Origin: a virus
DNA length: 64,000 nt
Reading direction: 5' to 3' (one strand)
IMG/VR virus record: IMGVR_UViG_3300013126_000014
Coordinates: 53,788 to 117,787 of that record
Part shown: piece by piece, positions 33,742-56,907 of the stretch
Position numbering within the stretch: the stretch's first letter is position 1
How the letters are laid out: each line of letters opens with the position of its first letter
Translations under genes and position numbers: made by a program
Notes under the pieces: generated by a model
What the model saw: the letters and a program-made list of their open reading frames with translations, nothing else
Database searches by the model: none
Told to the model about the DNA's origin: nothing

Positions 33742-33772
33742 ATAGGTAAGTTTTTCTAACTTACCTATTTTT
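33742..33772 (+). terminator. Putative intrinsic terminator of the tail operon
   Basis: Perfect 11-bp inverted repeat ATAGGTAAGTT / AACTTACCTAT with a short loop, followed by a T run. The stem is AT-rich. Confidence 0.6.
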
Positions 33773-33788: not shown

Positions 33789-34097
33789 ATGATTGATCAA
33801 TTAGTAGAACAGATTAAACAGTCAACGAACTACCAAACTAACAAGCGTATTTTACGCGAAAAAATTCAGACTGACCTCCACGTTGCGTATAATGGTGGCT
33901 TATTTAAAGTTACCCCTGAATTGATATCTTTTTTGTCAGTTTGGGAAGCCGATGACTTATTTTTAGAAGATACTTATCAAAATCCTATTAAAGTTAGTAG
34001 AATAGAATTTTTATCATTGTGTAAGCAACATTACCAAACAGCTATGAATAGTTGGAACATACAATATGAAGAACTTAAACGCATTAGAAAAATCTAA
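33789..34097 (+). CDS. Hypothetical protein
   Basis: 102-aa ORF after the promoter, overlapping the next gene. Confidence 0.7.
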   Translation: MIDQLVEQIKQSTNYQTNKRILREKIQTDLHVAYNGGLFKVTPELISFLSVWEADDLFLEDTYQNPIKVSRIEFLSLCKQHYQTAMNSWNIQYEELKRIRKI

Positions 34098-34881
34098 AGG
34101 TGTTATATTATTTGCGTTTAACACTGAAACTATTGACTATGTTAAAATTGCAGATCGCGCAGCTCAATTAGTGCACCGCACCCTTGGTTTGCCTGTTACT
34201 TTGGTAACAGATCAAAATGTCGTTACTGGACATATTGATCAAATAGTTATAATTAAAAATACTCTACAAAACTTTCGAGTTGGGTATGCTGGCGGCACAC
34301 AATGGCGTAATGGGAATAGATATCGGGCATATGATCTAAGCCCGTACGACGAAACTATACTGATCGATAGTGATTATCTAATGTTAGATCAAACACTATT
34401 AACCATGTTAGACTCTACTTTAGATTATAGACTTATACATGAGAATCAAACACCCGACCATTATATGACTAATAGCATGGGCAATACTAGTTTAGATTAT
34501 GTTTGGGCAACAGCGATTACATTTAAACGTACAGAACGTAGCCGCCTACTGTTTGAATTGGTCGGACGTATACAGCGAAACTATGAATACTATCGTTGTC
34601 TGTATAATATACAACAAAGAAACTTTCGCAACGATTATGCGTTTGCTATTGCACACAATATTTTGAACGGATACACCTTGGCTAAAGATCAAAGCATGCC
34701 AATTACTATGCTAACTATAGAAAATACCGTGCAGGCAATAGAACTAAGAACTAATAATTTAGTAGTACGGCAACCAGGTTATGCACATGTATTACCAAAA
34801 CAAAATCTACATATCATCGACAAGGACTATTTGCTTAGTGAAAACTACGGCAAATTTATAGACATTATATGTCAAAATTAG
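34066..34881 (+). CDS. GT-A fold glycosyltransferase-like protein (GT8-like)
   Basis: YDLSPYDETILIDSDYL (DxD after a hydrophobic strand) and RNDYAFAIA. Confidence 0.65.
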   Translation: MKNLNALEKSKGVILFAFNTETIDYVKIADRAAQLVHRTLGLPVTLVTDQNVVTGHIDQIVIIKNTLQNFRVGYAGGTQWRNGNRYRAYDLSPYDETILIDSDYLMLDQTLLTMLDSTLDYRLIHENQTPDHYMTNSMGNTSLDYVWATAITFKRTERSRLLFELVGRIQRNYEYYRCLYNIQQRNFRNDYAFAIAHNILNGYTLAKDQSMPITMLTIENTVQAIELRTNNLVVRQPGYAHVLPKQNLHIIDKDYLLSENYGKFIDIICQN

Positions 34882-35717
34882 AACAGCAAGGGTTTCTAAC
34901 CATAGCACAGAATAACGATACTACAGATTATCTGCGACTTGCTTACGCACAGGCGTTAAGCATTAAATTAACTATGCCTGGCAGTAAGTATGCTGTTCTA
35001 GTTGATGCCGTAACTATGTCTCAAGTAACTAACAAACATCGCAAGATATTTGATTACGTAATTGAACTACCTATAGACGATGCTGTTGATCAGCAGTGGA
35101 AATTGGCCAATGAATGGCAGGCCTGTGCTCTGACACCATTTAAAGAAACTATTAAACTTGAAAGTGATATACTGTTTACACGTAGCATCGAACATTGGTG
35201 GACTATATTCCGTTTAAGAAATATTGTAATTAGTTTAGGATGCAAAGATTTTCAAGGCAATCCTGCTGCTAGTAGAAATTATCGTAAGGTGTTTGACGAT
35301 AATAATCTACCAGATGTATACACAGGATTAATGTATTTTAGATACAGTAGTGAAGCATATGAATTTTTTGAAATAGTTAAAGCCTGTTTTCGACATTGGG
35401 ATATAGTGTCAGCACAGTTGAAGAACTATAGAGACACACAACCAACCACGGATCTAGTTTATGCTGTAGCTGCAAATCGCATGGGTTTGGAAACTTGTAC
35501 GTTGCCCAGCTGTGATTTTATTAACTTTACGCATATGAAAAACTCAATCAACCTCTGGCCAGAATCTATTCCGTGGTCTGAAATAGTGTTAACAGAAATT
35601 GATAGCCCAATGTTGCGTGTGAATAATACTAATCAATATTACCCATTTCACTATCAGGATAAGGCTTGGATCACAGATGAATTAATAGAGAGATATGAAA
35701 ATGAGCTCAGAATCTGA
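34869..35717 (+). CDS. GT-A fold glycosyltransferase-like protein, paralogue of the upstream gene
   Basis: LTPFKETIKLESDIL (ExD), YTGLMYF, TTDLVYAVA, FTHMK. Confidence 0.6.
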   Translation: MSKLEQQGFLTIAQNNDTTDYLRLAYAQALSIKLTMPGSKYAVLVDAVTMSQVTNKHRKIFDYVIELPIDDAVDQQWKLANEWQACALTPFKETIKLESDILFTRSIEHWWTIFRLRNIVISLGCKDFQGNPAASRNYRKVFDDNNLPDVYTGLMYFRYSSEAYEFFEIVKACFRHWDIVSAQLKNYRDTQPTTDLVYAVAANRMGLETCTLPSCDFINFTHMKNSINLWPESIPWSEIVLTEIDSPMLRVNNTNQYYPFHYQDKAWITDELIERYENELRI

Positions 35718-36054
35718 ATTTTTGGCAGCACTACTGGCATTGCAACCTATAGTCGAAGAACCTATAGAATATAGAATTTATTATAATGAAAATGGGCGGA
35801 TAACTCAATGCAGCTTGCGAGGGCATCCTAAAGACGGTAACTATCTAGTCGTTACCGCTGAAGAGTATAACAACTATTTTCGCTATACTGTAGTAGAAGG
35901 TAGGCTGAAAAGAATTGACGTCGAGCATAACTTTCATGTAAAATTAACAAAGGCAGATTGCGGATATAAAGTAGTTAAAAATCACGCCGGTATCTTAATT
36001 GAACCAAATGAAACCTATAAGTATATAGAATATTATGACAACAGAAATAATTGA
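35695..36054 (+). CDS. Hypothetical protein
   Basis: 119-aa ORF overlapping both neighbours. Confidence 0.65.
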   Translation: MKMSSESEFLAALLALQPIVEEPIEYRIYYNENGRITQCSLRGHPKDGNYLVVTAEEYNNYFRYTVVEGRLKRIDVEHNFHVKLTKADCGYKVVKNHAGILIEPNETYKYIEYYDNRNN

Positions 36055-36931
36055 CGTAGCAGATTTAGATTGTATATATCTGAGTTACGATGAACCTAAA
36101 AAAGAAGAGTTCTGGGTGCAAATACAAAATATTGTACCTTGGGCAAAACGTATAGACGGAGTTAAAGGAAGTGATAGAGCACACAAAGCTGCTGCTTCGG
36201 CAAGCGACACTGAGCGGTTTATTCTTATTGATGGGGACAATATTCCTGATCCTAACTTTTTTAATTTGCAGCTTGGTCTTAATAGCACTAACCGTGACTG
36301 TGTGTTTCGTTGGCGTGCAAAGAACGCGATCAATGGTCTACAGTATGGCAATGGCGGGTTGAGCTGCTGGACCCGTGCATTTGTACAGACTATGCAGACA
36401 CACGAAGCTAGTGATGGATCAGCTGCAAATGATGTAGAGTTTTGTTTCTACCCAAACTATTGGGCCATGCATGACTGCTATTCAACAACCTATCCCGACC
36501 AAAGTCCATTTCAGGCATGGCGGGCAGGTTTCCGCGAAGGTGTTAAGATGTGTTTAGATCGTGGAACAAGACCTAATTTATCAGAGTTTGAACAACGTGT
36601 ACACAGTCGCAACTATGATCATTTATGTATTTGGCAGACCGTGGGTGCAGATGTTGAGAATGGCTTTTGGGCTATATATGGCGCACGTCTTGGGACGTAT
36701 ATGACAATGTTAGAAGATTGGGATTATCGTAAAGTGCAAGACTTTGATGCGCTTGCATCGCTGTGGAATGTGTACAATAATGCACAACCTGAGCACTGTA
36801 CTAATATTGGCAACGAACTGCGAAACAAATTGGGTTTGCCTATAGTAGATATGGACCCAGAAGAAAGTAAATTTTTTAAACACCATTACAAGAGTAATTT
36901 CCGTAATCGAGGAATAATGACACGTGAGTAA
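36035..36931 (+). CDS. GT-A fold glycosyltransferase-like protein
   Basis: IYLSYDEP, GVKGSDRAHKAAA, FILIDGD (DxD), NGLQYGNGG, AWRAGFREGVK. Confidence 0.7.
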   Translation: MTTEIIDVADLDCIYLSYDEPKKEEFWVQIQNIVPWAKRIDGVKGSDRAHKAAASASDTERFILIDGDNIPDPNFFNLQLGLNSTNRDCVFRWRAKNAINGLQYGNGGLSCWTRAFVQTMQTHEASDGSAANDVEFCFYPNYWAMHDCYSTTYPDQSPFQAWRAGFREGVKMCLDRGTRPNLSEFEQRVHSRNYDHLCIWQTVGADVENGFWAIYGARLGTYMTMLEDWDYRKVQDFDALASLWNVYNNAQPEHCTNIGNELRNKLGLPIVDMDPEESKFFKHHYKSNFRNRGIMTRE

Positions 36932-38324
36932 AAGCGTGTTTATGTCGGCAGCAGAACAAATGAAGGACCAGTTAGGACCGGCACTCTGCCTGGCCAAGTG
37001 GCAACAAGTTAGTCTACATTTGGGCACCGGTATGACTAATAGTTGTTACCATCCACCGTTGCATGAAATTGATCCTACTCCTTTACTAGCCAATCCTAGT
37101 GCGTTACATAATACATCTTACAAAAAATCTCAACGTATTATTATGTTAAAGCAAGAACGCCCGGGGGAATGCAGTTATTGCTGGAGTGCAGAAGACAACG
37201 GGCACTTGAGTGATCGACACTATCGCAGCGGTGAGCCATGGGCCGCAGAACACTTTGACACGATTGTAAACAGCCAAGGCAACGAAGATGTTACACCAAG
37301 TTATGTTGAAGTAAACTTTAGTAATGTATGCAACCTTGCGTGTTCGTATTGTAGTCCGCAGTATTCTACAGAATGGGCAAAGGATGTAGAACGTTGGGGC
37401 GCATATCCTACGAGCAATAAACATAATGATCCGGTTTACTTCCAAGGTCGTCGCAAATCCATTCCGAATCGTGAACACAACCCATATTTAGAAGCATTTT
37501 GGCGTTGGTGGCCCGAATTATATCCTAAATTAAAACACTTCCGTATGACCGGCGGTGAACCTCTTATGGATAAAAACACACACCGCGTGTTTGATTACAT
37601 TCTAAACAGTTTACCAAACAAAGAGCTACATTTAGATGTTACTAGTAACTTTAGTGTAGTTCCTGAGCTGTTTAACCCTTACTTAGAAAAAGTCAAACAA
37701 TTATGTGAAGGTGATTATGTTGAACATTTTATGCAGTATGTAAGTTTAGACAGTGGCGACCCGATGCAGGCCAGTTATATTCGCAGAGGTATGGGCAATC
37801 ATCGCGTAAACACATACGTCCATCGTTACTTAACACAGATACCTAACCGTAACAGTTTAACCTACATTATTACAATGAGCAACTTAAACATTTTAGGGTT
37901 AAAACGCTTACTTGAGCATATATTAGAATTACGCCAGCTACACAGTCACACCTATCAACGTGTTTGGTTTGATACACCGTTGTTACGTAGCCCAACATGG
38001 CAAAGTTTACAAATACTCCCACAAAGTTATTGGGAGATATTGGAAGATAGTGTTGTTTTTATGAAACAAAATCAGATGTCCGAAGAAAGTTTTGTAGGAT
38101 TTAAAGACTACGAAATACAGCGCATGGAACGTAACCTAGCATGGATGCGTCAAGGACGAGAGTTGGAACCCACATATATAGAACAACAACGGGCTGACTT
38201 TTACCGTTTCTTTAGTGAATATGATAAACGCAGCGAAACACAGGGAATAACAAGTTTCTTAGAAACTTTTCCTGAGATGAAAGATTTTTGGCAAGAGTGC
38301 AAATGGCATGCAGAAAATTCCTAA
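36924..38324 (+). CDS. Radical SAM enzyme with N-terminal Twitch-like module
   Basis: CLAKW...SCYH...CSYCW, then CNLACSYC and TGGEP. GTG start overlapping the upstream stop. Confidence 0.9.
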   Translation: MSKSVFMSAAEQMKDQLGPALCLAKWQQVSLHLGTGMTNSCYHPPLHEIDPTPLLANPSALHNTSYKKSQRIIMLKQERPGECSYCWSAEDNGHLSDRHYRSGEPWAAEHFDTIVNSQGNEDVTPSYVEVNFSNVCNLACSYCSPQYSTEWAKDVERWGAYPTSNKHNDPVYFQGRRKSIPNREHNPYLEAFWRWWPELYPKLKHFRMTGGEPLMDKNTHRVFDYILNSLPNKELHLDVTSNFSVVPELFNPYLEKVKQLCEGDYVEHFMQYVSLDSGDPMQASYIRRGMGNHRVNTYVHRYLTQIPNRNSLTYIITMSNLNILGLKRLLEHILELRQLHSHTYQRVWFDTPLLRSPTWQSLQILPQSYWEILEDSVVFMKQNQMSEESFVGFKDYEIQRMERNLAWMRQGRELEPTYIEQQRADFYRFFSEYDKRSETQGITSFLETFPEMKDFWQECKWHAENS

Positions 38325-39441
38325 GACATTTTGTCCTGCCAAATGGGAAGAGATACATGTTAACTTTGGGTTTAATTATGTGTTTGCTTGCTGTAAAGCA
38401 ACACCGATCCGATTTGTTAACAACATCAATGAAGTACTTGGCCCACAACGGCAAAATTTACTAAATGATATACAGGATCCTAGTTGTAATTATTGCTGGT
38501 CGATGGAAAATCAAGGTCATGCGAGTCGCCGGCACGATTACCTGTCAAAGAACAACAACGATATTTCTATCTATAGGGAAAATAAATCTAAAACTAAGAT
38601 GGTGGAAATTAGTTTAGGGAACGAGTGTAATTTTCAATGCGGATATTGCAATCCTAAATTTAGTAGCCAATGGGAAAGTGATGTTAATTCAAAAATATAT
38701 CCAGTATTTACTGATAGATTTTTTTATGCGTTAGATGAAAAAAATAAAAATACAATCGTTGATACAGTAAATTGGTTGTCTGAGGTTGAAGATCTAGATA
38801 CGTTATCTATTGTTGGCGGCGAACCTTTATTGAATAAAAACTTTTTTAAGATAATTGAAAAAGTTAAATCAAATAAATTGGGATTTGCGACTAATTTATC
38901 TTGTAGCCAATTAAAAATAGATCAAGTATTAGAATTAGCAAATCATTACAGCGATATCAGCTTAAGTGTAAGCATAGATTCTACAGGCGAGCTAGCAGAA
39001 TTTACTCGTTACGGCATGAACTGGGATACTATGCGGGATAATTTGTTATACCTTGTGACTAACAGCCCTAAGAATGTAAAAATTAATTTATTATCTCTTA
39101 TGACAAGTTCTACCATAAGAGGACTCAAAGAGATGACTCTCTTTGTTGAAAGACTGTATAATATTAATAACAATCTTGTTTGGCAATTATTTGATTGCAG
39201 AGATCCAAAGATACATAGCATGTTAACGTTACCAACTGAGATGAAACCAGAAATACTTAAACAGTTGGATATAATAAACACAATGCCAAACACTGAATTT
39301 GCAGAATTGGTTCAAAATAGTATTATTAATAGCAAATTTAATAGAACTATGTATAAAGAATTACAGGAATTTACTAATGAATTTAGCCAACGTAAAAATA
39401 TAGAGGTACCAGAATGCCTAAAAGACCTCAAGAAACCTTAA
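38308..39441 (+). CDS. Radical SAM enzyme with N-terminal Twitch-like module
   Basis: CPAKW...ACC...CNYCW, then CNFQCGYC and VGGEP. Confidence 0.9.
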   Translation: MQKIPKTFCPAKWEEIHVNFGFNYVFACCKATPIRFVNNINEVLGPQRQNLLNDIQDPSCNYCWSMENQGHASRRHDYLSKNNNDISIYRENKSKTKMVEISLGNECNFQCGYCNPKFSSQWESDVNSKIYPVFTDRFFYALDEKNKNTIVDTVNWLSEVEDLDTLSIVGGEPLLNKNFFKIIEKVKSNKLGFATNLSCSQLKIDQVLELANHYSDISLSVSIDSTGELAEFTRYGMNWDTMRDNLLYLVTNSPKNVKINLLSLMTSSTIRGLKEMTLFVERLYNINNNLVWQLFDCRDPKIHSMLTLPTEMKPEILKQLDIINTMPNTEFAELVQNSIINSKFNRTMYKELQEFTNEFSQRKNIEVPECLKDLKKP

Positions 39442-40778
39442 TAGAGTATAAAGAACGAGTAATTGATAGTAAGAGTGCTAGCTTCTGTGGTGCTAAGTGG
39501 TACAATGCTACTATCTGGTTGGGTAGCGGGCAGACTACTAGCTGTCACCATCCCTTGCCACATGCGATCAACGTACAAGAAATTACTTTTAATCCTAAGG
39601 CTATTCATAACACCAAGGAAAAGAAAGAACAGCGTCGTCAAATGCAAGTAGGTGAGCGACCAGGTGGGTGCGAATACTGCTGGAAACTAGAAGATGCACG
39701 TGCATCAAGTGATAGAATTTATAAAACAATTATCTACGATGATGTAGATTTAGACTTAGCATACAACACGGATCATAATGAAGACATCAATTTACAAACT
39801 TTGGAAATCGCATTCGACAGAACTTGTCAGTTTGCTTGTAGCTACTGTAACCCTGCTTTTAGCACTGCCTGGGTTAGAGATATTAAGCGCAATGGAGCCT
39901 ATGAACATCTCGTATCTGACGGACGCAATCACTTTACTCACCCTCATGATAGTAGTCAACTTTTTTCACCTGATGAGATTAACCCTTATGCTGAGGCGTT
40001 CTTTGCGTGGTGGGAATCAGACTTACACAAAACCTTAAAAGAATTACGCATCACAGGCGGCGAACCTTTAATGAGTCCGTACCTGTGGCGATTGATTGAT
40101 TGGTTTAAAGCAAATAGAGGCAAAAGCACTACAAGATTGGCAATTAACAGTAACCTAGGATTTGAACGTGAAAAACTTGAAAGATTATTGGAAGCATGTG
40201 AAGGCATTGAGCTTGACATTTATACAAGCAACGAATCATGGGGTCGCCATGCGGCTTATATACGCGATGGGTTGGATTGGAGTCAATGGGTTAATAATGT
40301 ACATTATCTCCTTGAGTCTAAACAGTTGCGTGGACTCCACGTTATGTGTACCATCAATGCCCTATGCTTATTCTCACTAACAGACTTGTTATGGGAAATT
40401 GTTGCACTAAAGAAAAAATACGGTAAAGATTCAATTAATTTTACCCTAAACATCTTACGCTTCCCAAGTTTTCAAAGCCCGCTGATCGTACCCATCGAGT
40501 TTAGACTAGAAGCTTGTCGCAAACTAAAACACTTGTTTGATAATACATATCAAATAGGCAATGCAGCATCTACAGATCAATTACATGAGTTTGAACGTGA
40601 ACATATTGTTAGATTAATAACATATCTCAAAGACGTAGATACGCCACATAGTGGAGCACTAAGTAAGGAAATCTTACAGCGCGACTTTAAAAACTTCTAT
40701 CAACAATACGACCAGCGTCGCGGTAAAGACTTTAAATATACTTTTCCAGAACTAAAAGATTGGTACGACACACTTTGA
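39414..40778 (+). CDS. Radical SAM enzyme with N-terminal Twitch-like module
   Basis: CGAKW...SCHH...CEYCW, then CQFACSYC and TGGEP. Confidence 0.9.
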   Translation: MPKRPQETLIEYKERVIDSKSASFCGAKWYNATIWLGSGQTTSCHHPLPHAINVQEITFNPKAIHNTKEKKEQRRQMQVGERPGGCEYCWKLEDARASSDRIYKTIIYDDVDLDLAYNTDHNEDINLQTLEIAFDRTCQFACSYCNPAFSTAWVRDIKRNGAYEHLVSDGRNHFTHPHDSSQLFSPDEINPYAEAFFAWWESDLHKTLKELRITGGEPLMSPYLWRLIDWFKANRGKSTTRLAINSNLGFEREKLERLLEACEGIELDIYTSNESWGRHAAYIRDGLDWSQWVNNVHYLLESKQLRGLHVMCTINALCLFSLTDLLWEIVALKKKYGKDSINFTLNILRFPSFQSPLIVPIEFRLEACRKLKHLFDNTYQIGNAASTDQLHEFEREHIVRLITYLKDVDTPHSGALSKEILQRDFKNFYQQYDQRRGKDFKYTFPELKDWYDTL

Positions 40779-47671: not shown

Positions 47672-47676
47672 TGTAA

Positions 47677-47682
47677 TATTTA
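47677..47682 (-). promoter_or_regulatory. TAAATA late-promoter motif for the inverted radical SAM pair
   Basis: Minus-strand TAAATA 5 nt before ATG 47671. Confidence 0.55.
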
Positions 47683-47712
47683 ACAAAAAAGTTAATACCT
47701 TAAATTTTTAAT

Positions 47713-47718
47713 TAAATA
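47713..47718 (+). promoter_or_regulatory. TAAATA late-promoter motif
   Basis: 6 nt before ATG 47725. Confidence 0.55.
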
Positions 47719-47724
47719 TCTAAT

Positions 47725-50975: not shown

Positions 50976-51042
50976 ATTAGAAATAAGATATAGAAAAAAA
51001 CTAAAAGAATTACGAAAAAGAGACCCTTTTATATACAAATGA
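50941..51042 (+). CDS. 33-aa basic peptide
   Basis: MNWLLKIINRVKLEIRYRKKLKELRKRDPFIYK. AGGAG RBS upstream, ATGA overlap with the next gene. Not in the ORF track. Confidence 0.65.
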   Translation: MNWLLKIINRVKLEIRYRKKLKELRKRDPFIYK

Positions 51043-51674
51043 AAAGAATATTAGCAGTAGGCGATAGTTTTACATACGGAGCAGAGTTGAAAGAGTTAAC
51101 TTCTGCTTGGCCATCATTGTTGGGTAAAAAATTAGGATATGCAGTGGATAATTACGGGCTACAAGGCGGTGGCAACCAACAGATGGTGCGCACAGTAGTC
51201 CAGCACTCCGATCAACATGAAATAATAATCATTGCATGGAGTCACTACGCTAGGATGGAGTTTGCTGATGGTTGCGGTGTTTTTGATGTGTGGCCTGGTA
51301 GTAGAGGATTAGAGTTTGCGGGAGAAACTGCACACAGAAAGGATCTACTAAAATACATTAATCTGCATCATAATGATCATTATCTGTACAAACAATATCT
51401 TCTCAATATTATTTTATTACAAAATTATCTAAAATCAAAAAATAAAAAATATATCATGTTAGACACGTTTGGAAATTTAGAACTTCGTAAACAGTTTTAT
51501 AACTTTTCTAATCTGGTTGATTCAACTTTTTATTTAGGTTGGCCCAATGAAACAATGATGGAATGGACTTATGGTTGCCCACAAGGACCTGGCGGACATT
51601 TCTTAGAAGAAGGACATGCTGTAGTAGCAGAAAAAATCAATGAACATATTAGGAATCTCGGCTGGATTTCATGA
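51039..51674 (+). CDS. SGNH/GDSL hydrolase-like protein
   Basis: VGDSFTYG, QGGGN, and C-terminal GGHFLEEGH. Paralogue of 50154..50975. Confidence 0.7.
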   Translation: MKRILAVGDSFTYGAELKELTSAWPSLLGKKLGYAVDNYGLQGGGNQQMVRTVVQHSDQHEIIIIAWSHYARMEFADGCGVFDVWPGSRGLEFAGETAHRKDLLKYINLHHNDHYLYKQYLLNIILLQNYLKSKNKKYIMLDTFGNLELRKQFYNFSNLVDSTFYLGWPNETMMEWTYGCPQGPGGHFLEEGHAVVAEKINEHIRNLGWIS

Positions 51675-53139
51675 CGCGGCGGTAACCGCAATCGTAGACG
51701 ACAAAATTGTTTTTGCTGGGCACAGTGAACGCTACAGCAAGCGTAAACATGACAGTAACTTACATCCTGACTTAATTAAAGACGCATTAAACTATCTTGG
51801 TCACGTAGATCAAATTGCCTACTACGAAAGACCATGGGCTAAATGCACACGTCAACTATACGCAGGACAATATTACGATGCTCTCCATCCTTACAATTTA
51901 AAAGATTGGTTGTATAAAAATGTCCAATGGTCGGGCCTACATAGTTTAAAGATTGAAAACTATAATCATCACCTAAGTCATGCGGCTGCCGGTTTCCAAA
52001 CAAGTCCATTTACAGATGCTACAGTAGTGGTAATTGATGCCATAGGTGAGTGGGATACTATTAGTATCTGGTCAGCGTATTATGATGACAGCACTGGTCG
52101 TGCTGAATACAAAAAGCTATGGGGACAAAAATATCCCCATAGCATTGGCCTAATGTATTCGGCCTTTACTCAGAGCGTGGGGTTGAAACCCTTAGATGAA
52201 GAATATATACTAATGGGAATGGCAGGTTGGGGCAAGCCATTAAATTGGTTTCAAGCAGACAATCTTAAGGCCAGTTTAATAGAAGACGATGCTGCATTAA
52301 TTTTTAAACATAATCTACACATTGGCCTACCAGGAAAGATTCAAGGTAATTGGTCAAACGAAGATACCGCACGTGCAGCACAGGAACTCGCAGAAGATTT
52401 AATAGCAACTGTGATGGGCAAAGCTCGAGATCTAGGCCTTAGTGATAATTTGGTCTACTCGGGCGGAGTGGCACTTAACTGTAGTGCTAATAGAATACTA
52501 GGAGAATACTATGATAACATTTGGATTATGCCTAATCCTGGCGATGCTGGCAGTAGCCTTGGCGCGGCTGCAATGGCGTATGGCAGAAGATTGGTTTGGG
52601 ATAATGCTTTCTTGGGTCATGATATTAGTGGCCCTTACCCTGTTAAAGATATCATTTCCGAGTTGGCTACTAATAAAATTGTTGGGGTAGCCAGTGGTCG
52701 AGCAGAGTTTGGCCCTAGAGCATTGGGTAATAGAAGTTTATTAGCGGACCCTAGAGGTTCAGAAATAAAGGATACTGTAAATGAAATCAAACGTAGACAA
52801 AAGTTTAGACCTTTTGCACCTGTCATACTTGAAGAGCTTGCACGTGATTATTTTGATATGCCTGTGGGCTGGGATCGTAGCCCTTACATGCAGACAGTGG
52901 CTCATTGCCGTCGTCCTAGCGAGTTTCCCGCTATTGTACATGTGGATGGCACATCGCGTGTACAAACAGTACCAAAAGATGGTTCGGGAATCAGACAACT
53001 CTTAGAACAATGGTATGTATGGACAGGTTGTCCAATGTTGCTTAACACTAGCTTAAACATCAGAGGGGAACCAATGGTCAATGATCGTAAAGATGCAGAT
53101 AGGTTTGAACAGTTATACGGAGTACGAGTATTATCATGA
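51640..53139 (+). CDS. O-carbamoyltransferase (NodU/CmcH/TobZ family)
   Basis: HDAA, HHLSHAA, DAIGE, GGVALNC, PGDAG, EFGPRALGNRS, FRPFAP, HVDGTSRVQ, LLNTSLN. Confidence 0.95.
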   Translation: MNILGISAGFHDAAVTAIVDDKIVFAGHSERYSKRKHDSNLHPDLIKDALNYLGHVDQIAYYERPWAKCTRQLYAGQYYDALHPYNLKDWLYKNVQWSGLHSLKIENYNHHLSHAAAGFQTSPFTDATVVVIDAIGEWDTISIWSAYYDDSTGRAEYKKLWGQKYPHSIGLMYSAFTQSVGLKPLDEEYILMGMAGWGKPLNWFQADNLKASLIEDDAALIFKHNLHIGLPGKIQGNWSNEDTARAAQELAEDLIATVMGKARDLGLSDNLVYSGGVALNCSANRILGEYYDNIWIMPNPGDAGSSLGAAAMAYGRRLVWDNAFLGHDISGPYPVKDIISELATNKIVGVASGRAEFGPRALGNRSLLADPRGSEIKDTVNEIKRRQKFRPFAPVILEELARDYFDMPVGWDRSPYMQTVAHCRRPSEFPAIVHVDGTSRVQTVPKDGSGIRQLLEQWYVWTGCPMLLNTSLNIRGEPMVNDRKDADRFEQLYGVRVLS

Positions 53140-53558
53140 AAACAAAATATCAACAGGCACACATGCAGGCCGCACATATCTATGCCGGGCTTAGTCACGC
53201 ACGTAGATTAAAAGTTGGCGCACTTATCGTCAAAGACGATAGAATCATATCAATTGGCTACAACGGTATGCCTGGCGGTTGGGATAACAACTGCGAAATA
53301 GAAACAGAAGATGGATTACTTAAAACTAAACCGGAGGTATTACATGCGGAAACGAACGCTATTGCGAAACTTGCTAGGAGCAGTGAGTCTGGTCTCGGCT
53401 CAACTTTATTTGTTACACATAGTCCTTGCCTCGATTGCGCCAAAATCATCTATCAGTCAGGTATTAAGCATGTCTACTACGCAACTGATTACAGGGATGA
53501 TAGTGGGATCACTTTTCTTCGCAATTCCGGCATCCAAGTAGATCAACTAGATGTTTGA
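53136..53558 (+). CDS. cd: dCMP deaminase
   Basis: VGALIVKD.RIISIGYNG, HAETNA and SPCLDC zinc motifs. Confidence 0.92.
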   Translation: MKTKYQQAHMQAAHIYAGLSHARRLKVGALIVKDDRIISIGYNGMPGGWDNNCEIETEDGLLKTKPEVLHAETNAIAKLARSSESGLGSTLFVTHSPCLDCAKIIYQSGIKHVYYATDYRDDSGITFLRNSGIQVDQLDV

Positions 53559-54876
53559 CGTTTTTATCATGGACATGGGAGGTAATGATACCAATGTATA
53601 CGACCTTGTACAGCGTTTCCCGCACGCTCGAGTAGTAAGATACTACGATAATCACTTAAACACGTTAAAACGCTGTATTTCGCGTTGTAGAACCCCATAT
53701 GCCTGGGTTATTTCCAGTGTTTGCGACTATACAGACTTTGATTTTGACTATAGGGCACGACCATGGGAAGCATATCAGCTACACTGCTGGGCTAGTGGCA
53801 CAGAAAAGTTTGGTGATACATTCCTTGTAAATGTTGCTGAGTTTAAACAACAAAAAGACATCGAATTACTAGAGTGGTATAAGGATGTTAACTGGCACAC
53901 ACCCGGAGTACCGCGCCTAACTCCGCCTGTGGTTACATACACTAGCGATAACCTGGTTGATGTAGTGCGTGCTACAAAGTTTGACACTCCCTACATACTA
54001 TTCAAACGTGATGTAGACTCTACACCCAATTTTGAGCCCATTTTATGGCGAGATCGTGCTGTACACACTTTTAACAGAGCAAACAGTGTATCACTAGTGC
54101 CGCGCGAAATTTCAGCGCATTTAGCAACACAAATCTACGATTTTCCGCACATAATCAAGCAAAAATCGCAGATTTTGGCCTCAGATCCGCTTGATATTAT
54201 CTATATCAGCAACGGCGAACCTAACGCAGAACAGTGGTATAATCACTTGTTATCAACAATAAGCAGGGGCAATTACACCAATTGGATACGTAGAGTCAAG
54301 GATGTTAATGGTCGAGTAAACGCATATAAAGCCGCCGCTGAGGCCAGCCAAACTGATTGGTTTTTTGCTGTGTTTGCTAAGTTAGAAGTAGTGGACTCAT
54401 TTGATTGGTCGTGGCAACCAGATTACTTACAAGAGCCTAAGCACTATATTTTCAATAGTCGCAATCCTGTAAATGGTTTAGAGTACGGCCATATGGGTGT
54501 TATTACCTACAATCGAAGATTAGTACTTGACACAGTTGAACATGGCCTAGACTTTACTCTAAGCAAACCACATGCTGTGGTCCCTGTGTTAAGTGCTACT
54601 GCACACTACAATACCACACCTGAACTAACCTGGCGCACAGCCTTCCGCGAAGTTGTAAAACTCAAAGACGATGCGGTGCGGAATGACAGTGTTGAAAGCC
54701 GGCATAGATTAAAAACTTGGCTACACAAAGCTGAGGGTGATCACAGTGAGTGGAGCTTAATAGGTGCGCATGATGCTGTTGAATATTACAACAGTGTTGA
54801 AGGCAATTACGATAAACTAATGCTTAGTTTTGAGTGGGTATGGCTAACAGATTACTGGACTAAGAAATATTCTTAA
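53551..54876 (+). CDS. Glycosyltransferase-like protein (two-domain paralogue of 36035..36931)
   Basis: C-terminal half LDIIYISNGEP...AYKAAA...NGLEYG...WRTAFREVVK aligns with 36035..36931. Confidence 0.65.
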   Translation: MFDVFIMDMGGNDTNVYDLVQRFPHARVVRYYDNHLNTLKRCISRCRTPYAWVISSVCDYTDFDFDYRARPWEAYQLHCWASGTEKFGDTFLVNVAEFKQQKDIELLEWYKDVNWHTPGVPRLTPPVVTYTSDNLVDVVRATKFDTPYILFKRDVDSTPNFEPILWRDRAVHTFNRANSVSLVPREISAHLATQIYDFPHIIKQKSQILASDPLDIIYISNGEPNAEQWYNHLLSTISRGNYTNWIRRVKDVNGRVNAYKAAAEASQTDWFFAVFAKLEVVDSFDWSWQPDYLQEPKHYIFNSRNPVNGLEYGHMGVITYNRRLVLDTVEHGLDFTLSKPHAVVPVLSATAHYNTTPELTWRTAFREVVKLKDDAVRNDSVESRHRLKTWLHKAEGDHSEWSLIGAHDAVEYYNSVEGNYDKLMLSFEWVWLTDYWTKKYS

Positions 54877-55984
54877 TTACACTGTCAACAATATGTTCTA
54901 CTTCAGCATCCATTAGTTCTGGATAGATAGGTAAACTAAGTGCAGTCTTACAAAAATCCTCAGCACCATTTAGCACGCCTAAATTAAAGTCAACACCAAA
55001 TATAAAACTCACAGGCTCTAGGTGTAGGGGTTTGCTGTAGTGTATCTTTGTTTCGACTCCGTCGTCATCTAAACGAATTTTTAATCTACCACGATTGGGA
55101 GCATTGATAACAAACTTGTGCCAAGCATGTTCCACACGATTGTCTACAGTAGGTATATCGACTATACCGCTGAGCTGATCTTGATAGTATTCGGCGATTT
55201 GTCGTCTGCGAACCTGCCACTGATCAAAGTATTTTAATTTGACCAACATTTGAGCACAATCACTTTCACTCATTTTACTGTTAGTTCCAGTCATGTGGTG
55301 ATCATCAAATTTGCCATTGTCTCGTAAGTTTCTGACTACTTCGTAAAAGTTGTAATCATCTGTGAGTACCATGCCGCCACTACCGTAGTTGTTTAGATTT
55401 TTGGTAGGATCAAAACTTAAGACACTTAGGTCACCTAGTTTGCCGCTGGGTACGCCACGCCAATAGGCGCCAAAACTCTGTGCTGCGTCTTCAATGATAT
55501 GTACATCATTTTCTGCCCATAGTGTTTGATAGTGTAAGAGTTGGTCGTAGTCAACAATGTTACCAAATAGATTAACATACATTACAGCATGAAGTTCATC
55601 TGCTGATACTGGAATTTTATTTAGGTCAATGAGCCCTGTGCGAGGATCGACATCACAGAACACAGGATCAAATCCTGCTTCGAGTACTGCGTTAGCTGTG
55701 GCAATGAAACTAACTGAGGGAATAAGAACTTTATGTCGAGTGTCTCGATCGCCCCAATCAACACTGCGTAGACTAAAGATAAGACCTTGAGTACCACTAC
55801 CTACAGCCACAGCATACCTACGTTCGGTCATCTTAGCTAAGGTTTTTTCAAACAGGTCAGTGTAATAGCCGTCGAGAACTCGACCTGACTTGTATACAGT
55901 GTCAGAAGCCGCCAGAATCTCCTCGCGAAGGTTGCGGTATTGTCTATCTATCCCAAAGAACGGGATTCTTGATGTACCACTCAT
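54860..55984 (-). CDS. DegT/DnrJ/EryC1/StrS PLP-dependent sugar aminotransferase
   Basis: SGT, SFIATANA, IIEDAAQSFG, SFDPTKNL..YGSGG, LSLPIYPEL. Confidence 0.95.
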   Translation of the reverse strand: MSGTSRIPFFGIDRQYRNLREEILAASDTVYKSGRVLDGYYTDLFEKTLAKMTERRYAVAVGSGTQGLIFSLRSVDWGDRDTRHKVLIPSVSFIATANAVLEAGFDPVFCDVDPRTGLIDLNKIPVSADELHAVMYVNLFGNIVDYDQLLHYQTLWAENDVHIIEDAAQSFGAYWRGVPSGKLGDLSVLSFDPTKNLNNYGSGGMVLTDDYNFYEVVRNLRDNGKFDDHHMTGTNSKMSESDCAQMLVKLKYFDQWQVRRRQIAEYYQDQLSGIVDIPTVDNRVEHAWHKFVINAPNRGRLKIRLDDDGVETKIHYSKPLHLEPVSFIFGVDFNLGVLNGAEDFCKTALSLPIYPELMDAEVEHIVDSVIKNIS

Positions 55985-56906
55985 AATATTTTCTAAAGCC
56001 TTCTTCTACCCCAACTTTGGGAGCATAGCCTAGGTCTTGTTGTGCTCTACTGATATCTAGTCGACCACGTTTAGGAAAACTTAAATCTCGATCGGCACAG
56101 ATTAAATCGCCTTTACCTGCAATATTAATAGCAAGCTCTGCGGCTTCTTTTAATGTCCACATGCGATCATCGCTACGTGTGATATTGTAAATGCCCTGAG
56201 CATTTTCTTTAGTTGCAGCAAGTGCGATACCCATGGCAGTATCTTCAACGTAGGTAAAATCAAGTACTTCAGTGGCGCCATTTACTTTAAGTGTTTCGCC
56301 GCGCATAGCTTTAGTCATAAACTTGCTAACAACACGATCCTCTACGTCCCATTCACCATACACAGCACTAGGACGAATAATAACATGCTCAAAGCAACCA
56401 CGGCGGCTGTAATCTTCTACAAGTTTCTCACCCATATATTTCATAATACCATACTGCCCAATTGGGTTACACAGGCTGTTTTCTGTGACATCTGTTTCAA
56501 AGTCGCCATAGACCATACTAGAGCTAATATAAACAAACTTGCGAATATTATGTTTTTTACTAAGTTCTAATAGATTAATTAATCCCGTTGCCATAACTTC
56601 GCTGGCTATTGCTGGATCTTGTTCTACTACCTTTTGTCGAGGATAACTAGCCAAATGAATTACACAGTCAAATTCATAATTCATAAACAGGCTGTTTAGT
56701 TTATTAGCATCTCGGATATCAACTTTATATGTTTCGCTGATGTATCTCTTTTGTCGGGCAGACGTCAGATAAGTTATTTCATTAGCAGGAATAAATCCGT
56801 AGTTAGTAAATGCATCCACAACACTACAATCGTGTCCTTGCTGTTCTAAGAAACGTGTCACGTTGTGTCCGATAAAACCTGCCCCACCTGTAATCAAATA
56901 CTTCAT
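55944..56906 (-). CDS. NAD-dependent NDP-sugar epimerase/dehydratase
   Basis: TGGAGFIG, HLAS, SSSMVYG, YGIMK (YxxxK), DFTYVED. Start moved to MKYLITGG at 56906. Confidence 0.93.
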   Translation of the reverse strand: MKYLITGGAGFIGHNVTRFLEQQGHDCSVVDAFTNYGFIPANEITYLTSARQKRYISETYKVDIRDANKLNSLFMNYEFDCVIHLASYPRQKVVEQDPAIASEVMATGLINLLELSKKHNIRKFVYISSSMVYGDFETDVTENSLCNPIGQYGIMKYMGEKLVEDYSRRGCFEHVIIRPSAVYGEWDVEDRVVSKFMTKAMRGETLKVNGATEVLDFTYVEDTAMGIALAATKENAQGIYNITRSDDRMWTLKEAAELAINIAGKGDLICADRDLSFPKRGRLDISRAQQDLGYAPKVGVEEGFRKYYEWYIKNPVLWDR

Positions 56907-56907
56907 G

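What the first reader, a model, noticed from the sequence alone, without database searches (positions are those of the whole stretch)
33789..56906. Phage-encoded ~23 kb glycan-building and radical-SAM tailoring pathway next to the tail genes
Seen: one tightly overlapping cluster with about five glycosyltransferase-like genes, eight radical SAM enzymes (one B12-type), a 2OG-Fe(II) oxygenase, two SGNH proteins, a NodU/TobZ-type carbamoyltransferase, a DegT aminotransferase and an NDP-sugar epimerase/dehydratase. It begins immediately after the last fibre gene. Established: dehydratase plus DegT makes NDP-amino sugars. Twitch radical SAMs (BtrN, NeoN), class B methyltransferases (GenK, GenD1) and TobZ tailor amino sugars in aminoglycoside pathways. 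Inference: this phage makes a heavily tailored (oxidised/epimerised, methylated, acylated, carbamoylated) amino-glycan. The likely target is virion proteins; DNA or the host surface are alternatives. I know of no characterised phage pathway with this enzyme complement.
Basis: partly seen in the sequence, partly recalled or inferred. Interest (0 to 1): 0.9.

Follow-up and report, generated by a model that had tools for sequence, protein, structure and literature searches.

The report
Jumbo-phage radical-SAM sugar-tailoring operon
A giant lake-water phage carries, just behind its tail-fibre genes, a packed 23-kb block of sugar-transferring enzymes, eight iron-sulfur "radical SAM" enzymes (six from a family with no known reaction) and a carbamoyl-adding module; it most likely builds and edits an unusual sugar chain whose product and target are unknown.

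Summary
The gene content is mostly as described. Eight radical SAM genes are present, one of them B12-type. A NodU/CmcH-type carbamoyltransferase, a DegT aminotransferase, an SDR dehydratase/epimerase and two SGNH-like proteins are also there. Only three glycosyltransferase-like genes hold up (B, C, E), plus one E-like copy (U) without the DxD motif. The "2OG oxygenase" (L) is not confirmed by Pfam or PDB.

Six of the radical SAMs belong to NCBIfam NF033640 (N_Twi_rSAM), which has no characterised member.

A core (A-B-C-E-F-H-I-J-O-P-S) is collinear in 57 of 59 related IMG/VR loci. G, K, L, M, N, V and W are variable add-ons.

The link between this radical SAM family and sugar transfer is supported independently:
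- Vibrio phage K566 interleaves four such genes with GT8 genes.
- Bacterial homologues sit among GT1/GT2 genes, epimerases, ABC transporters and PhyH dioxygenases.
- Three representatives are direct fusions of a glycosyltransferase domain to an N_Twi_rSAM.

The acceptor (virion, host envelope or other) is unresolved, and DNA looks unlikely. This scan has already noted the same kind of operon in at least 129 other genomes. I found no paper describing it.

The parts
33713..33741 (+). sigma-70-type promoter, TTGACA-17-TATAAT, 12 of 12
   Evidence: the only 12/12 site among the 60 promoter-like sites in 28000-47900. It starts one base after the stop of the last fibre-like gene.
33742..33768 (+). 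terminator-like hairpin (11-bp stem, 5-nt loop, T-run) directly after the -10 box
   Evidence: A transcript starting about 7 nt after the -10 box would lack most of the 5' arm. That last point is inference.
33789..34097 (+). A, 102 aa, conserved, function unknown
   Evidence: No Pfam, PHROG or NCBIfam hit. Found in 49 of 60 related loci.
34066..34881 (+). B, 271 aa, GT8-like paralogue of C, invariant D101-x-D103
   Evidence: hhalign to the C family 99.4%, E 3e-21. Invariant columns. No direct PDB or Pfam hit. Found in 49 of 60 loci.
34869..35717 (+). C, 282 aa, GT8-like (glycogenin-like N-terminal half), E98-S-D100, H222..K224
   Evidence: Family profile to glycogenin-1, E 1.1e-4, residues 3-111. 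phrog_1903, function unknown. Found in 50 of 60 loci.
35695..36054 (+). D, 119 aa, unknown
   Evidence: No hits. Found in 34 of 60 loci.
36035..36931 (+). E, 298 aa, GT-A-fold nucleotide-sugar transferase-like, invariant D66-G-D68
   Evidence: AlphaFold model pLDDT 83. Foldseek top hit is the PBCV-1 capsid glycosyltransferase, E 6.7e-4. VIA Z 9.9, rmsd 3.2, 140 aligned residues, over residues 5-154. Found in 57 of 60 loci.
36924..38324 (+). F, N_Twi_rSAM (core)
   Evidence: NF033640 286.5 bits against cut-off 170. Found in 53 of 60 loci.
38308..39441 (+). G, N_Twi_rSAM (accessory)
   Evidence: NF033640 190.7 bits. An orthologue at 40% identity or more is found in 4 of 60 loci.
39414..40778 (+). 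H, N_Twi_rSAM (core); 50% identical orthologue in cultured Ralstonia phage RsoM2USA
   Evidence: NF033640 289.9 bits.. Found in 56 of 60 loci.
40760..42085 (+). I, N_Twi_rSAM (core); the true start is probably the TTG at 40775
   Evidence: NF033640 395.8 bits. Start comparison with relatives. Found in 60 of 60 loci (it was the search query).
42075..43289 (+). J, N_Twi_rSAM (core)
   Evidence: NF033640 343.5 bits. Found in 56 of 60 loci.
43282..44214 (+). K, 310 aa, orphan accessory family, often multi-copy in relatives
   Evidence: No Pfam or PDB hit. None of the 84 homologues carries a Pfam domain. Found in 16 of 60 loci. Up to 5 K-like ORFs occur in L075.
44198..44980 (+). L, 260 aa, candidate 2OG/Fe(II)-type oxygenase (unconfirmed), accessory
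   Evidence: Invariant H80, D82, H241, H247, R237 and K250 in 15 sequences. Atlas nearest named clusters are DUF6445, score 0.94. No Pfam or PDB match. No tblastn hit in the 60 loci.
44967..46841 (-). M, 624 aa, B12-binding radical SAM (class B methyltransferase-like), accessory
   Evidence: Pfam B12-binding plus Radical_SAM. Best NCBIfam family is KedN5, 223.6 bits against cut-off 700. Found in 0 of 60 loci at 40% identity or more.
46838..47686 (-). N, 282 aa, small radical SAM, accessory
   Evidence: Radical_SAM 41.9 bits, Fer4_12 29.2 bits. Found in 2 of 60 loci.
47725..49032 (+). O, N_Twi_rSAM (core)
   Evidence: NF033640 287.6 bits. Found in 53 of 60 loci.
48980..50176 (+). P, 398 aa, cyclophilin-like barrel with a helical insertion carrying invariant His/Glu residues; function unknown (core)
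   Evidence: Model pLDDT 82.7. No Foldseek hit at E 1e-3 or better. VIA-wide Z 8-9.7 to cyclophilins. Invariants. Found in 51 of 60 loci.
50154..50975 (+). Q, 273 aa, SGNH-like (GGDS motif)
   Evidence: DUF6071 20.8 bits, below the cut-off of 27. Paralogue of R, E 2e-9. Found in 30 of 60 loci.
50941..51042 (+). 33-codon basic microprotein ending in DPFIYK, partner of the carbamoyltransferase
   Evidence: ORF listed. Present in 47 of the 48 loci that hold S, and in only 1 of the 14 that do not. Also present in RsoM2USA.
51039..51674 (+). R, 211 aa, SGNH/DUF6071
   Evidence: DUF6071 34.4 bits against 27. Lipase_GDSL_2, E 1.1e-3. Found in 32 of 60 loci.
51640..53139 (+). S, 499 aa, NodU/CmcH-type carbamoyltransferase
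   Evidence: Carbam_trans_N 124.4 bits and Carbam_trans_C 169.2 bits. 47% identical to an RsoM2USA ORF. Found in 46 of 60 loci.
53136..53558 (+). T, dCMP deaminase; probably a nucleotide-metabolism neighbour, not a pathway member
   Evidence: dCMP_cyt_deam_1 78 bits. Found in 3 of 60 loci.
53551..54876 (+). U, 441 aa, C-terminal E-like domain without DxD
   Evidence: hhalign to the E family 99.7%. The E motif region aligns to FAVFAK. Found in 20 of 60 loci. A U-like domain is fused to an N_Twi_rSAM in P0287.
54860..55984 (-). V, DegT/PseC/DesI-type sugar aminotransferase (accessory)
   Evidence: PF01041 277.5 bits. PseC 180 bits against 423.5, DesI 148 bits against 650. Found in 7 of 60 loci.
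55944..56939 (-). W, SDR NDP-sugar dehydratase/epimerase (accessory)
   Evidence: Epimerase 152.7 bits. Best NCBIfam family is dTDP-glucose 4,6-dehydratase, 137.6 bits against 365. Found in 3 of 60 loci.

Best explanation
The block is a soluble, cytoplasmic pathway for building and editing a sugar chain.

Proposed steps (all inferred):
- The GT-A-type enzymes (B, C, E) transfer sugars from host nucleotide-sugars onto an acceptor that is reachable in the cytoplasm.
- The five conserved N_Twi radical SAM paralogues (F, H, I, J, O) each carry out a different radical edit on a sugar residue. Each has a SAM cluster plus a four-cysteine auxiliary cluster in an N-terminal twitch domain. The likely chemistry is oxidation, epimerisation or deoxygenation.
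- A carbamoylation module (carbamoyltransferase S, the 33-residue DPFIYK microprotein and the SGNH proteins Q and R) adds, and perhaps trims, carbamoyl or acyl groups.
- Strain-specific add-ons vary the product: extra radical SAMs G and N, the B12 methyltransferase-like M, the oxygenase candidate L, orphan K, and the amino-sugar pair V and W.

The acceptor is not identified. I rank a phage-made protein (fibre or other virion protein) first, and a host envelope glycan precursor second.

Shown: gene content, family memberships, conservation, and the recurrent association and fusion of this radical SAM family with glycosyltransferases. Inferred: every chemical step and the target.
For: Family membership:
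- All six twitch enzymes pass the NF033640 cut-off (191-396 bits against 170).
- They share invariant CxxxCxxC, GGEP and four N-terminal Cys.

Conservation:
- Each core paralogue has its own orthologue at about 50-89% identity in relatives, while the paralogues are only 20-33% identical to one another.
- The core order is collinear in 57 of 59 loci holding at least 4 core genes. The two exceptions come from an E hit landing on the U-like copy.

Glycosyltransferase evidence for B, C and E.

Independent associations of the radical SAM family with sugar chemistry:
- Vibrio phage K566 has four N_Twi-like genes interleaved with two GT8 ORFs (32.6 and 47.3 bits against 24.3) and a weak GT4-like ORF.
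- Ralstonia phage RsoM2USA has the order DUF6071, H orthologue, DUF6071, microprotein, DUF6071, carbamoyltransferase.
- I scanned 122 neighbour ORFs from 16 bacterial loci. Nine match Glycos_transf_1, 7 Glycos_transf_2, 7 Radical_SAM, 6 PhyH, 4 Epimerase and 4 ABC_tran.
- On a Methylomagnum plasmid, the PGAP-named twitch radical SAM lies among GT2, GT4 (two), GT39, ABC transporter, methyltransferase and phytanoyl-CoA dioxygenase genes.

Fusions among the 150 best representatives:
- P0287: U/E-like domain plus N_Twi (hmmsearch E 1e-43 and 1e-29).
- P0345: 'galactosyltransferase-related' N-terminus plus N_Twi.
- P0278: N_Twi plus a GT2-like C-terminus (TarS, E 2.6e-6; the source names it a glycosyltransferase).

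No export machinery:
- No ORF of the block has a membrane-span-like segment, apart from a 1.68 peak inside the barrel of H.
- Four near-complete relatives have no Bac_transf and no Wzx-type match, 0 of 4 each, while the controls ring in 9 and 13 of 14 genomes.
Against: - No member of NF033640 has a known reaction. The closest solved structures match only the generic radical SAM core (peptide cyclopropyl synthase 8vpo, viperin, MoaA), so a sugar substrate is guilt by association.
- The GT8 assignment of B and C rests on one weak profile hit to half a domain. Their profiles do not hit the K566 GT8 ORFs.
- E's Z of 9.9 is only modestly above the tool's stated background of 7-8, and nucleotidyltransferases score similarly.
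- The 60 related loci are one phage lineage, so their synteny may reflect descent rather than function.
- The bacterial neighbour tally has no matched control. I chose 16 of the 34 loci myself.
- Only 3 of the 24 non-radical-SAM extensions among the 150 representatives were shown to be glycosyltransferase-like. Three others tested gave nothing or only radical SAM hits.
- Nothing shows the acceptor. The block has its own sigma-70-type promoter behind a terminator, which weakens the argument from its position next to the fibre genes.
Confidence: 0.55

Rival explanations
1. Host-surface remodelling. The soluble enzymes act at the cytoplasmic face on host LPS core, capsule, EPS or lipid-linked intermediates. 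The host's own transporters then export the altered glycan, for example to block superinfection or change adsorption.
For: - Bacterial homologues sit in surface-polysaccharide-type clusters with ABC transporters and a GT39.
- From recall, GT8 includes LPS-core transferases.
- The block is driven by a perfect host-type promoter like the ones in front of the thymidylate synthase region, which fits early expression.
- RsoM2USA keeps its mini-module among nucleotide-metabolism (early-type) genes, not beside annotated structural genes.
Against: - The block has no membrane protein.
- Four near-complete relatives have no initiating phosphoglycosyl transferase and no flippase.
- The block stays next to fibre-like genes in 42 of the 49 loci that hold A. 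It does so even in a 31%-identical marine contig, L084.
Confidence: 0.2
2. Protein or peptide side-chain chemistry. The radical SAM enzymes modify amino acids of a fibre protein or of a small peptide (RiPP-like), and the sugar enzymes are secondary.
For: - SPASM and twitch radical SAMs are typical peptide maturases. The best PDB match of the family profile is a RiPP cyclopropyl synthase.
- Small conserved ORFs (A, D and the 33-residue microprotein) lie in the block.
Against: - The match to 8vpo covers only the radical SAM core.
- The microprotein tracks the carbamoyltransferase, not the radical SAMs. It is absent from 13 of the 14 loci without S, and most of those still hold the radical SAMs.
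- No peptide-recognition domain or protease was seen.
- The fusions are to glycosyltransferase domains.
Confidence: 0.08
3. A free small molecule, that is a glycosidic natural product or modified nucleotide-sugar made during infection, not attached to phage or host polymers.
For: - In actinomycete contigs (L094, L097, L099) an N_Twi-like gene lies within about 9 kb of a carbamoyltransferase-like gene.
- From recall and from earlier notes of this scan, a carbamoyltransferase with a small protein and a GDSL protein resembles the saxitoxin SxtI/J/K/L set.
Against: - The block has no exporter and no scaffold-forming enzyme (PKS, NRPS or cyclitol synthase).
- Three or four transferases suggest a chain built on an acceptor.
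Confidence: 0.1
4. DNA hypermodification: the sugars and carbamoyl groups are put on phage DNA bases.
For: - From recall, phages glycosylate 5-hydroxymethylcytosine, and carbamoyltransferases acting on it have been reported. The Pyle et al. 2024 paper on DNA glycans was seen only as a reference.
- dCMP deaminase, thymidylate synthase and DHFR lie in or next to the block.
Against: - The thymidylate synthase passes an equivalog cut-off (356 bits against 327).
- It is the only member of its family on the contig and in three near-complete relatives. A fourth relative has none. So no hydroxymethylase paralogue is seen.
- There is no Tet/JBP match on the contig, but the contig is only about 34% of the genome.
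- The T4 beta-glucosyltransferase search found nothing, but its control was uninformative.
Confidence: 0.05

Closest known systems
NCBIfam NF033640, N_Twi_rSAM (twitch domain-containing radical SAM protein)
   Same: F, G, H, I, J and O all score above the curated cut-off. They have the N-terminal four-Cys module ahead of CxxxCxxC.
   Different: The family is only catalogued. I found no characterised member. Here it is expanded to six copies per block. Near-complete relatives hold 6, 8, 8 and 12 copies above the cut-off.
Virus-encoded glycosylation machinery of giant viruses (chlorovirus capsid glycans, Mimivirus fibril glycans; PMC9614988, PMC8456856, PMC10117803: search listing and abstract starts; PMC9614988 also term-searched)
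   Same: In both, a virus encodes soluble glycosyltransferases and rare-sugar enzymes (an aminotransferase plus a 4,6-dehydratase-like SDR). E's best Foldseek hit is the PBCV-1 capsid glycosyltransferase.
   Different: The review text contains neither 'radical SAM' nor 'carbamoyl' (0 occurrences each). Here the host is a bacterium, and glycosylation of the virion has not been shown.
Mycobacteriophage virion glycosylation (Freeman et al. 2023; seen only as cited in PMC12619734)
   Same: Phage glycosyltransferase genes lie next to structural genes, with a cytoplasmic protein acceptor.
   Different: From recall, those phages use one or two GTs and no radical SAM or carbamoyl module. Here the block is 23 kb and has its own host-type promoter.
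Radical SAM tailoring of amino sugars in aminoglycoside pathways
   Same: The set combines twitch-type radical SAMs, a B12 radical SAM, a NodU/TobZ-family carbamoyltransferase and a DegT aminotransferase.
   Different: The twitch domain is N-terminal and the family is different. BtrN is not among the 20 PDB matches at E 0.1 or better. There is no cyclitol or aminoglycoside scaffold gene. M is below the KedN5 cut-off.
Carbamoyltransferase with a small partner protein and a GDSL protein
   Same: S, the 33-residue DPFIYK microprotein and the SGNH proteins Q and R travel together. The same three occur in RsoM2USA.
   Different: The context here is phage and glycan, not an alkaloid pathway.

Membership tests
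NF033640 N_Twi_rSAM | Whole-protein score above the curated cut-off (170 bits) | tested here: met
   F 286.5, G 190.7, H 289.9, I 395.8, J 343.5 and O 287.6 bits. N (30.5 bits) and M are not members.
NF033640 N_Twi_rSAM | N-terminal Cys-rich twitch module before the CxxxCxxC SAM-cluster motif | tested here: met
   Invariant C46, C65, C106, C109, then C160, C164, C167 and G219-G-E-P in all six. Pfam SPASM matches N-terminal to Radical_SAM in I, J and O.
Glycosyltransferase family 8 (Pfam PF01501) | Pfam model match above the gathering score | tested here: not met
   B and C have no Pfam family even at E up to 10.
Glycosyltransferase family 8 (Pfam PF01501) | Similarity to a solved GT8 enzyme, with a DxD-type motif | tested here: inconclusive
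   The C-family profile matches glycogenin-1 at E 1.1e-4 over residues 3-111 only. C has E98-S-D100 and B has invariant D101-S-D103. The B profile alone finds nothing in the PDB.
GT-A fold nucleotide-sugar transferases | Rossmann-like GT-A fold with a DxD motif | tested here: met
   E: Z 9.9, rmsd 3.2, 140 residues aligned to B4GALNT1 and STIV A197. Invariant D66-G-D68. Pfam Glyco_tranf_2_3 reaches only E 0.028. Nucleotidyltransferases of the same fold score Z 8-9.
2OG-Fe(II) oxygenases | Pfam or solved-structure match | tested here: not met
   L has no Pfam family. There is no PDB match with the single sequence or the 15-sequence profile.
2OG-Fe(II) oxygenases | HxD...H iron triad plus a basic residue for 2OG | tested here: inconclusive
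   H80, D82, H241, H247, R237 and K250 are invariant. The fold was not compared. The Atlas lead points to DUF6445, whose clan I know only from recall.
Class B (B12-dependent) radical SAM methyltransferases | B12-binding domain followed by a radical SAM domain | tested here: met
   M: B12-binding 39.6 bits against 32.1 and Radical_SAM 47.1 bits against 29.5. The KedN5 subfamily score of 223.6 is below its cut-off of 700.
NodU/CmcH/TobZ carbamoyltransferases | Carbam_trans_N and Carbam_trans_C domains | tested here: met
   S: 124.4 bits against 24 and 169.2 bits against 27. The NodU equivalog is not met, 145.9 bits against 1000.
DegT/DnrJ/EryC1 sugar aminotransferases | PF01041 above the cut-off | tested here: met
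   V: 277.5 bits against 19.8. No equivalog cut-off is reached: PseC 180 bits against 423.5, DesI 148.2 bits against 650.
SGNH/GDSL hydrolases | N-terminal GDS(L) block and a family model match | tested here: inconclusive
   R reaches DUF6071 at 34.4 bits against 27 and has VGDS. Q reaches 20.8 bits against 27 and has GGDS. The Lipase_GDSL models are below their cut-offs. That DUF6071 belongs to the SGNH clan is from recall.
Phage DNA hypermodification systems (5-hydroxymethylpyrimidine-based) | A pyrimidine hydroxymethylase (second thymidylate-synthase-family gene) or a Tet/JBP oxygenase | tested here: not met
   There is one PF00303 gene on the contig. Near-complete relatives hold 1, 1, 1 and 0. 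That gene passes the thymidylate synthase equivalog cut-off. No Tet_JBP match on the contig.
Virion glycosylation system | Glycans attached to virion proteins | not testable with these tools
   This needs glycoproteomics of particles. Only the position next to fibre-like genes is known (42 of 49 loci).

The most novel reading that the evidence does not exclude
The N_Twi radical SAM enzymes are a new class of glycan editors. After ordinary hexoses are transferred from host nucleotide-sugars onto a phage fibre or capsid protein, five dedicated radical enzymes convert individual residues in place into rare sugars (epimers, keto or deoxy sugars). These are then carbamoylated with the help of a tyrosine-tailed microprotein. 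The phage would obtain an exotic, strain-variable virion glycan without encoding any rare nucleotide-sugar pathway.
Probability: 0.2. Interest if true: 0.85.

Novelty: new variant of a known kind. Interest (0 to 1): 0.68.

Why it matters
- **Size of the unknown family.** A profile of the six paralogues finds 6,067 cluster representatives at E 1e-30 or better among 1.84 billion. By the Atlas, the close clusters are mostly viral. No reaction is known for any member.
- **Investment by the phage.** These phages devote 15-30 kb and 6-12 paralogues to it, so the product must matter to them.
- **A testable hypothesis.** Neighbourhoods and domain fusions tie the family to glycosyltransferases. That turns a catalogued name into a question enzymology can answer: radical chemistry on sugars.
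- **Cultured entry points.** Two cultured phages (RsoM2USA, K566) carry reduced versions.
- **If the target is the virion.** It would be the first bacterial-virus counterpart of the self-encoded glycan machinery of giant viruses, and it would bear on how phages vary or shield their receptor-binding surfaces.

Tried and rejected
Searches and tests that gave nothing:
- Megablast of the whole block against 50,697 phage records found no match.
- PDB sequence searches were empty or meaningless for the E profile, P profile, B profile, K profile, U profile, L alone and the L profile.
- Pfam at E up to 10 gave nothing useful for A, B, C, D, K, L, U and X. NCBIfam gave nothing for the unknowns. PHROGs gave only phrog_1903, of unknown function, for C.
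- A Pfam scan of the 8 K-family members gave nothing. My recalled idea that K resembles GT10-type fucosyltransferases stays untested.
- P as a glycosyltransferase is rejected. It has no Foldseek match, and its fold is a cyclophilin-like barrel with a helical insert.
- Profiles of B, C, E, U, P, K and L against all ORFs of the K566 and RsoM2USA loci gave no hit at E 0.01 or better.
- A viral-contig scan with a K566 radical SAM found no relatives.
- I tested five of the 24 extension-bearing representatives against plasmids. P0345 gave a glycosyltransferase. P0278 (118) and P0370 (121) gave nothing. P0376 and P0295 matched only in their radical SAM parts.
- Sequencing runs: no RNA holder was listed. 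The four holders are lake-water DNA metagenomes, two of them possibly the source.
- The T4 beta-glucosyltransferase family search found nothing, but nothing rang in the controls either, so it says nothing.
- T4-type late box TATAAATA: one match against 8.7 expected, so it is not the late motif here. By eye, ATAAATA-like boxes precede several structural genes. I did not count them.
- The strict promoter pattern upstream of A in relatives was found in 11 of 48 (76). Looser terminator-plus-promoter arrangements were seen by eye only.
- An apparent stop at codon 3 of I in some relatives turned out to be the overlapping end of H in another frame, not recoding.
- The 'moraphage' paper (PMC12619734, passages only) mentions four glycosyltransferase groups but no radical SAM. 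I did not establish whether it is the same lineage.
- The RsoM2USA paper (PMC8504454, term search) mentions neither radical SAM nor carbamoyl.
- Supplementary files of papers were not opened. Table S1E of PMC5332604 may list the 12 radical SAM genes of a T4-like marine genome.

Rows dropped before counts:
- For the neighbour tally (102-104) I used 16 of the 34 genome loci: L077, L080, L082, L083, L085, L091-L095, L097-L100, L103 and L104. I left out 18 that were short or looked like mis-binned phage contigs: L072-L076, L078, L079, L081, L084, L086-L090, L096, L101, L102 and L105.
- Within the 16 loci I used only ORFs of 120-900 aa lying roughly within 5 kb of the radical SAM gene, and I left out ORFs that matched F-O.
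- I did not check whether the Pfam families in that tally overlap on the same ORFs.

Full report
**Where the window lies.** The window is the last 64 kb of a 117,787-base IMG/VR virus contig that CheckV rates as 34% complete. It encodes a late sigma factor, baseplate hub and wedge proteins, a 4,322-residue ORF and fibre-like proteins. The baseplate wedge is 34-37% identical to those of jumbo myoviruses such as Atu_ph07, Phosso, XbC2 and PBECO4. Near-identical DNA occurs in lake-water metagenomes. The phage is therefore an uncultured freshwater jumbo myovirus of roughly 350 kb.

**Checking the observation.** The ORFs at 33789-56939 are packed as described.
- Pfam confirms eight radical SAM ORFs, one of them with a B12-binding domain. 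It also confirms a two-domain carbamoyltransferase, a DegT aminotransferase and an SDR epimerase/dehydratase.
- The two SGNH candidates have the N-terminal GDS motif. Only R passes a Pfam cut-off, for DUF6071.
The C-family profile matches glycogenin at E 1e-4 over its first 110 residues. B is a clear paralogue of C (hhalign 99.4%).
- E was modelled at pLDDT 83. It has a GT-A fold: Foldseek's top hit is the PBCV-1 capsid glycosyltransferase at E 6.7e-4, and VIA gives Z 9.9, rmsd 3.2 and 140 aligned residues. It has an invariant DGD.
- U contains an E-like domain without the DxD.
- K matches nothing.
- P, modelled at pLDDT 82.7, is a cyclophilin-like barrel with a helical insertion.
- L, the supposed 2OG oxygenase, has no Pfam or PDB match. 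It shows only an invariant HxD...H pattern and an Atlas lead to DUF6445.
- A dCMP deaminase sits inside the block.

**The radical SAM family.** F, G, H, I, J and O all pass the curated cut-off of NCBIfam NF033640, 'twitch domain-containing radical SAM protein' (191-396 bits against 170).
- They share four invariant N-terminal cysteines, then CxxxCxxC and GGEP.
- They are old paralogues, only 20-33% identical to one another.
- None of 14 control genomes has a member above the cut-off.
- The Atlas's nearest clusters are 88-100% viral.
- A profile of the six finds 6,067 representatives at E 1e-30 or better.
- The closest solved structures match only the generic core. The best, 8vpo, is a peptide cyclopropyl synthase.
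- I found no paper on the family. One paper notes a marine T4-like genome with 12 radical SAM genes, in the context of Fe-S supply (PMC5332604, passage).

**Conservation.** A scan of IMG/VR with I returned 60 loci at 42-89% identity. Local tblastn with thresholds gives these counts out of 60 loci:

| Gene | Loci | Gene | Loci |
|---|---|---|---|
| A | 49 | G | 4 |
| B | 49 | K | 16 |
| C | 50 | M | 0 |
| E | 57 | N | 2 |
| F | 53 | T | 3 |
| H | 56 | U | 20 |
| J | 56 | V | 7 |
| O | 53 | W | 3 |
| P | 51 | L | no hit |
| S | 46 | | |

- The left columns are the core and the right columns are the variable genes. Many loci are cut by contig ends or by the 10-kb flank.
- The order is collinear in 57 of 59 loci. 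The two exceptions come from an E hit landing on the U-like copy.
- A fibre-like hit ends within 1.5 kb upstream of A in 42 of 49 loci.
- Relatives insert other genes at the same places. L047 has six extra ORFs between F and H, and L075 has five K-like ORFs.
- The block is therefore a conserved core with a fast-changing set of add-ons.
- Near-complete relatives hold 6, 8, 8 and 12 N_Twi genes above the cut-off, some far from the block.

**Independent evidence that the family works with sugar transferases.**
- Among 50,697 phage records, only Vibrio phages K566 and K567 match I at E 1e-8 or better. In K566, four N_Twi-like genes are interleaved with two ORFs that pass Pfam's GT8 cut-off and one weak GT4-like ORF.
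- Ralstonia phage RsoM2USA has a 50%-identical H orthologue. It is flanked by three DUF6071 ORFs and followed by a 47%-identical carbamoyltransferase. Its paper mentions neither gene.
- A scan of species-representative genomes found 34 loci. In 16 that I judged cellular, 122 neighbour ORFs gave Glycos_transf_1 9, Glycos_transf_2 7, Radical_SAM 7, PhyH 6, Epimerase 4, ABC_tran 4, methyltransferases 3-5 and Acyl_transf_3 2. There was no control set.
- On a Methylomagnum plasmid, the PGAP-named twitch radical SAM lies among GT39, GT2, two GT4, oxidoreductases, an ABC transporter pair, a methyltransferase and a phytanoyl-CoA dioxygenase.
- Among the 150 best representatives, 30 carry two or three N_Twi modules in tandem, and three are fused to glycosyltransferase domains. 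These are P0287 (U/E-like), P0345 (galactosyltransferase-related) and P0278 (GT2-like; TarS at E 2.6e-6; named a glycosyltransferase by its source).

**The carbamoylation module.** Following a lead from earlier notes of this scan, I found a 33-codon ORF at 50941-51042. It overlaps the end of Q and the start of R, is strongly basic and ends in DPFIYK. A tail-motif search finds it in 47 of the 48 loci that hold S (RsoM2USA included) and in only 1 of the 14 that do not. In the deeper relatives it ends 3 bases before S. It therefore goes with the carbamoyltransferase, not with the radical SAMs.

**Transcription.** One base after the stop of the last fibre-like gene lies a 12-of-12 TTGACA-17-TATAAT promoter. 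It is followed at once by an 11-bp hairpin with a T-run.
- The only other perfect site in the second half of the window, and an 11-of-12 site with a TG, stand before the minus-strand nucleotide-metabolism genes.
- Structural genes are instead preceded by ATAAATA-like boxes (seen by eye).
- I infer that fibre transcripts stop at the hairpin and that the block is a separate unit read by the host polymerase, probably early.
- Relatives show similar terminator-plus-promoter arrangements (strict pattern in 11 of 48).

**The target.**
- No ORF in the block has a membrane span. Four near-complete relatives lack a Bac_transf initiating transferase and a Wzx-type flippase. The phage therefore brings no lipid-carrier or export machinery, and the acceptor must be reachable in the cytoplasm.
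- DNA is unlikely. The thymidylate synthase passes an equivalog cut-off, DHFR is adjacent, and no second family member or Tet/JBP gene is seen.
- The choice is between a phage-made protein and a host glycan precursor. Persistent adjacency to fibre genes across deep divergence favours the phage protein. The early-type promoter and the surface-polysaccharide contexts in bacteria favour the host precursor. I rank the phage protein first, without direct evidence.

**Verdict.**
- The interpretation as a glycan-building and tailoring pathway is supported by association and fusion evidence. The chemistry and the target remain inference.
- This scan has already noted the same kind of operon many times: 147 findings in at least 129 genomes. 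I found nothing on it in the searched literature.
- It is best filed as a new variant of virus-encoded glycan machinery, built around an uncharacterised radical SAM family.

Noticed in passing
window 50941-51042 (+): An unannotated 33-codon basic ORF ending in DPFIYK. It overlaps the end of Q and the start of R. It co-occurs with the carbamoyltransferase in 47 of 48 loci and is also present in the cultured phage RsoM2USA.
   Followed up: yes
window 2356-3936 (-) and just upstream of the window (G000:C1:52815-53306, -): Two further radical SAM ORFs outside the block, next to the late sigma factor gene. The first is 526 aa and weakly resembles PhpK/B12-type enzymes (63.8 bits against a cut-off of 600).
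   Followed up: partly
window 15044-28012 (+): A single 4,322-residue ORF between the baseplate wedge gene and the fibre-like genes. I did not analyse it.
   Followed up: no
window 62289-62261 (-) and 58854-58826 (-): A second perfect sigma-70-type promoter, and an 11-of-12 site with an upstream TG directly before the thymidylate synthase gene. They suggest that host-type promoters mark the early genes of this phage.
   Followed up: partly
window 40760-40778: The listed TTG start of I lies inside the last codons of H in another frame. Relatives start at the position equivalent to the TTG at 40775, so I is probably 436 aa.
   Followed up: yes
representative proteins P0247-P0396: Thirty of the 150 best N_Twi_rSAM representatives are tandem fusions of two or three complete modules. 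This suggests that the paralogues act together.
   Followed up: partly
G002:C1:8923-9462 (-): A weak radical SAM match in a near-complete relative contains one in-frame TAG. This may relate to the amber-suppressor tRNA noted for this genome by another finding.
   Followed up: no
L084 and L087 (contigs binned as a Rickettsiales MAG), L072-L076 (binned as Legionellales, Polynucleobacter, Porticoccaceae, Haliscomenobacter): These 'bacterial' MAG contigs carry the phage order (fibre, then B, C, E, then the radical SAM genes). They are probably mis-binned jumbo-phage DNA.
   Followed up: partly
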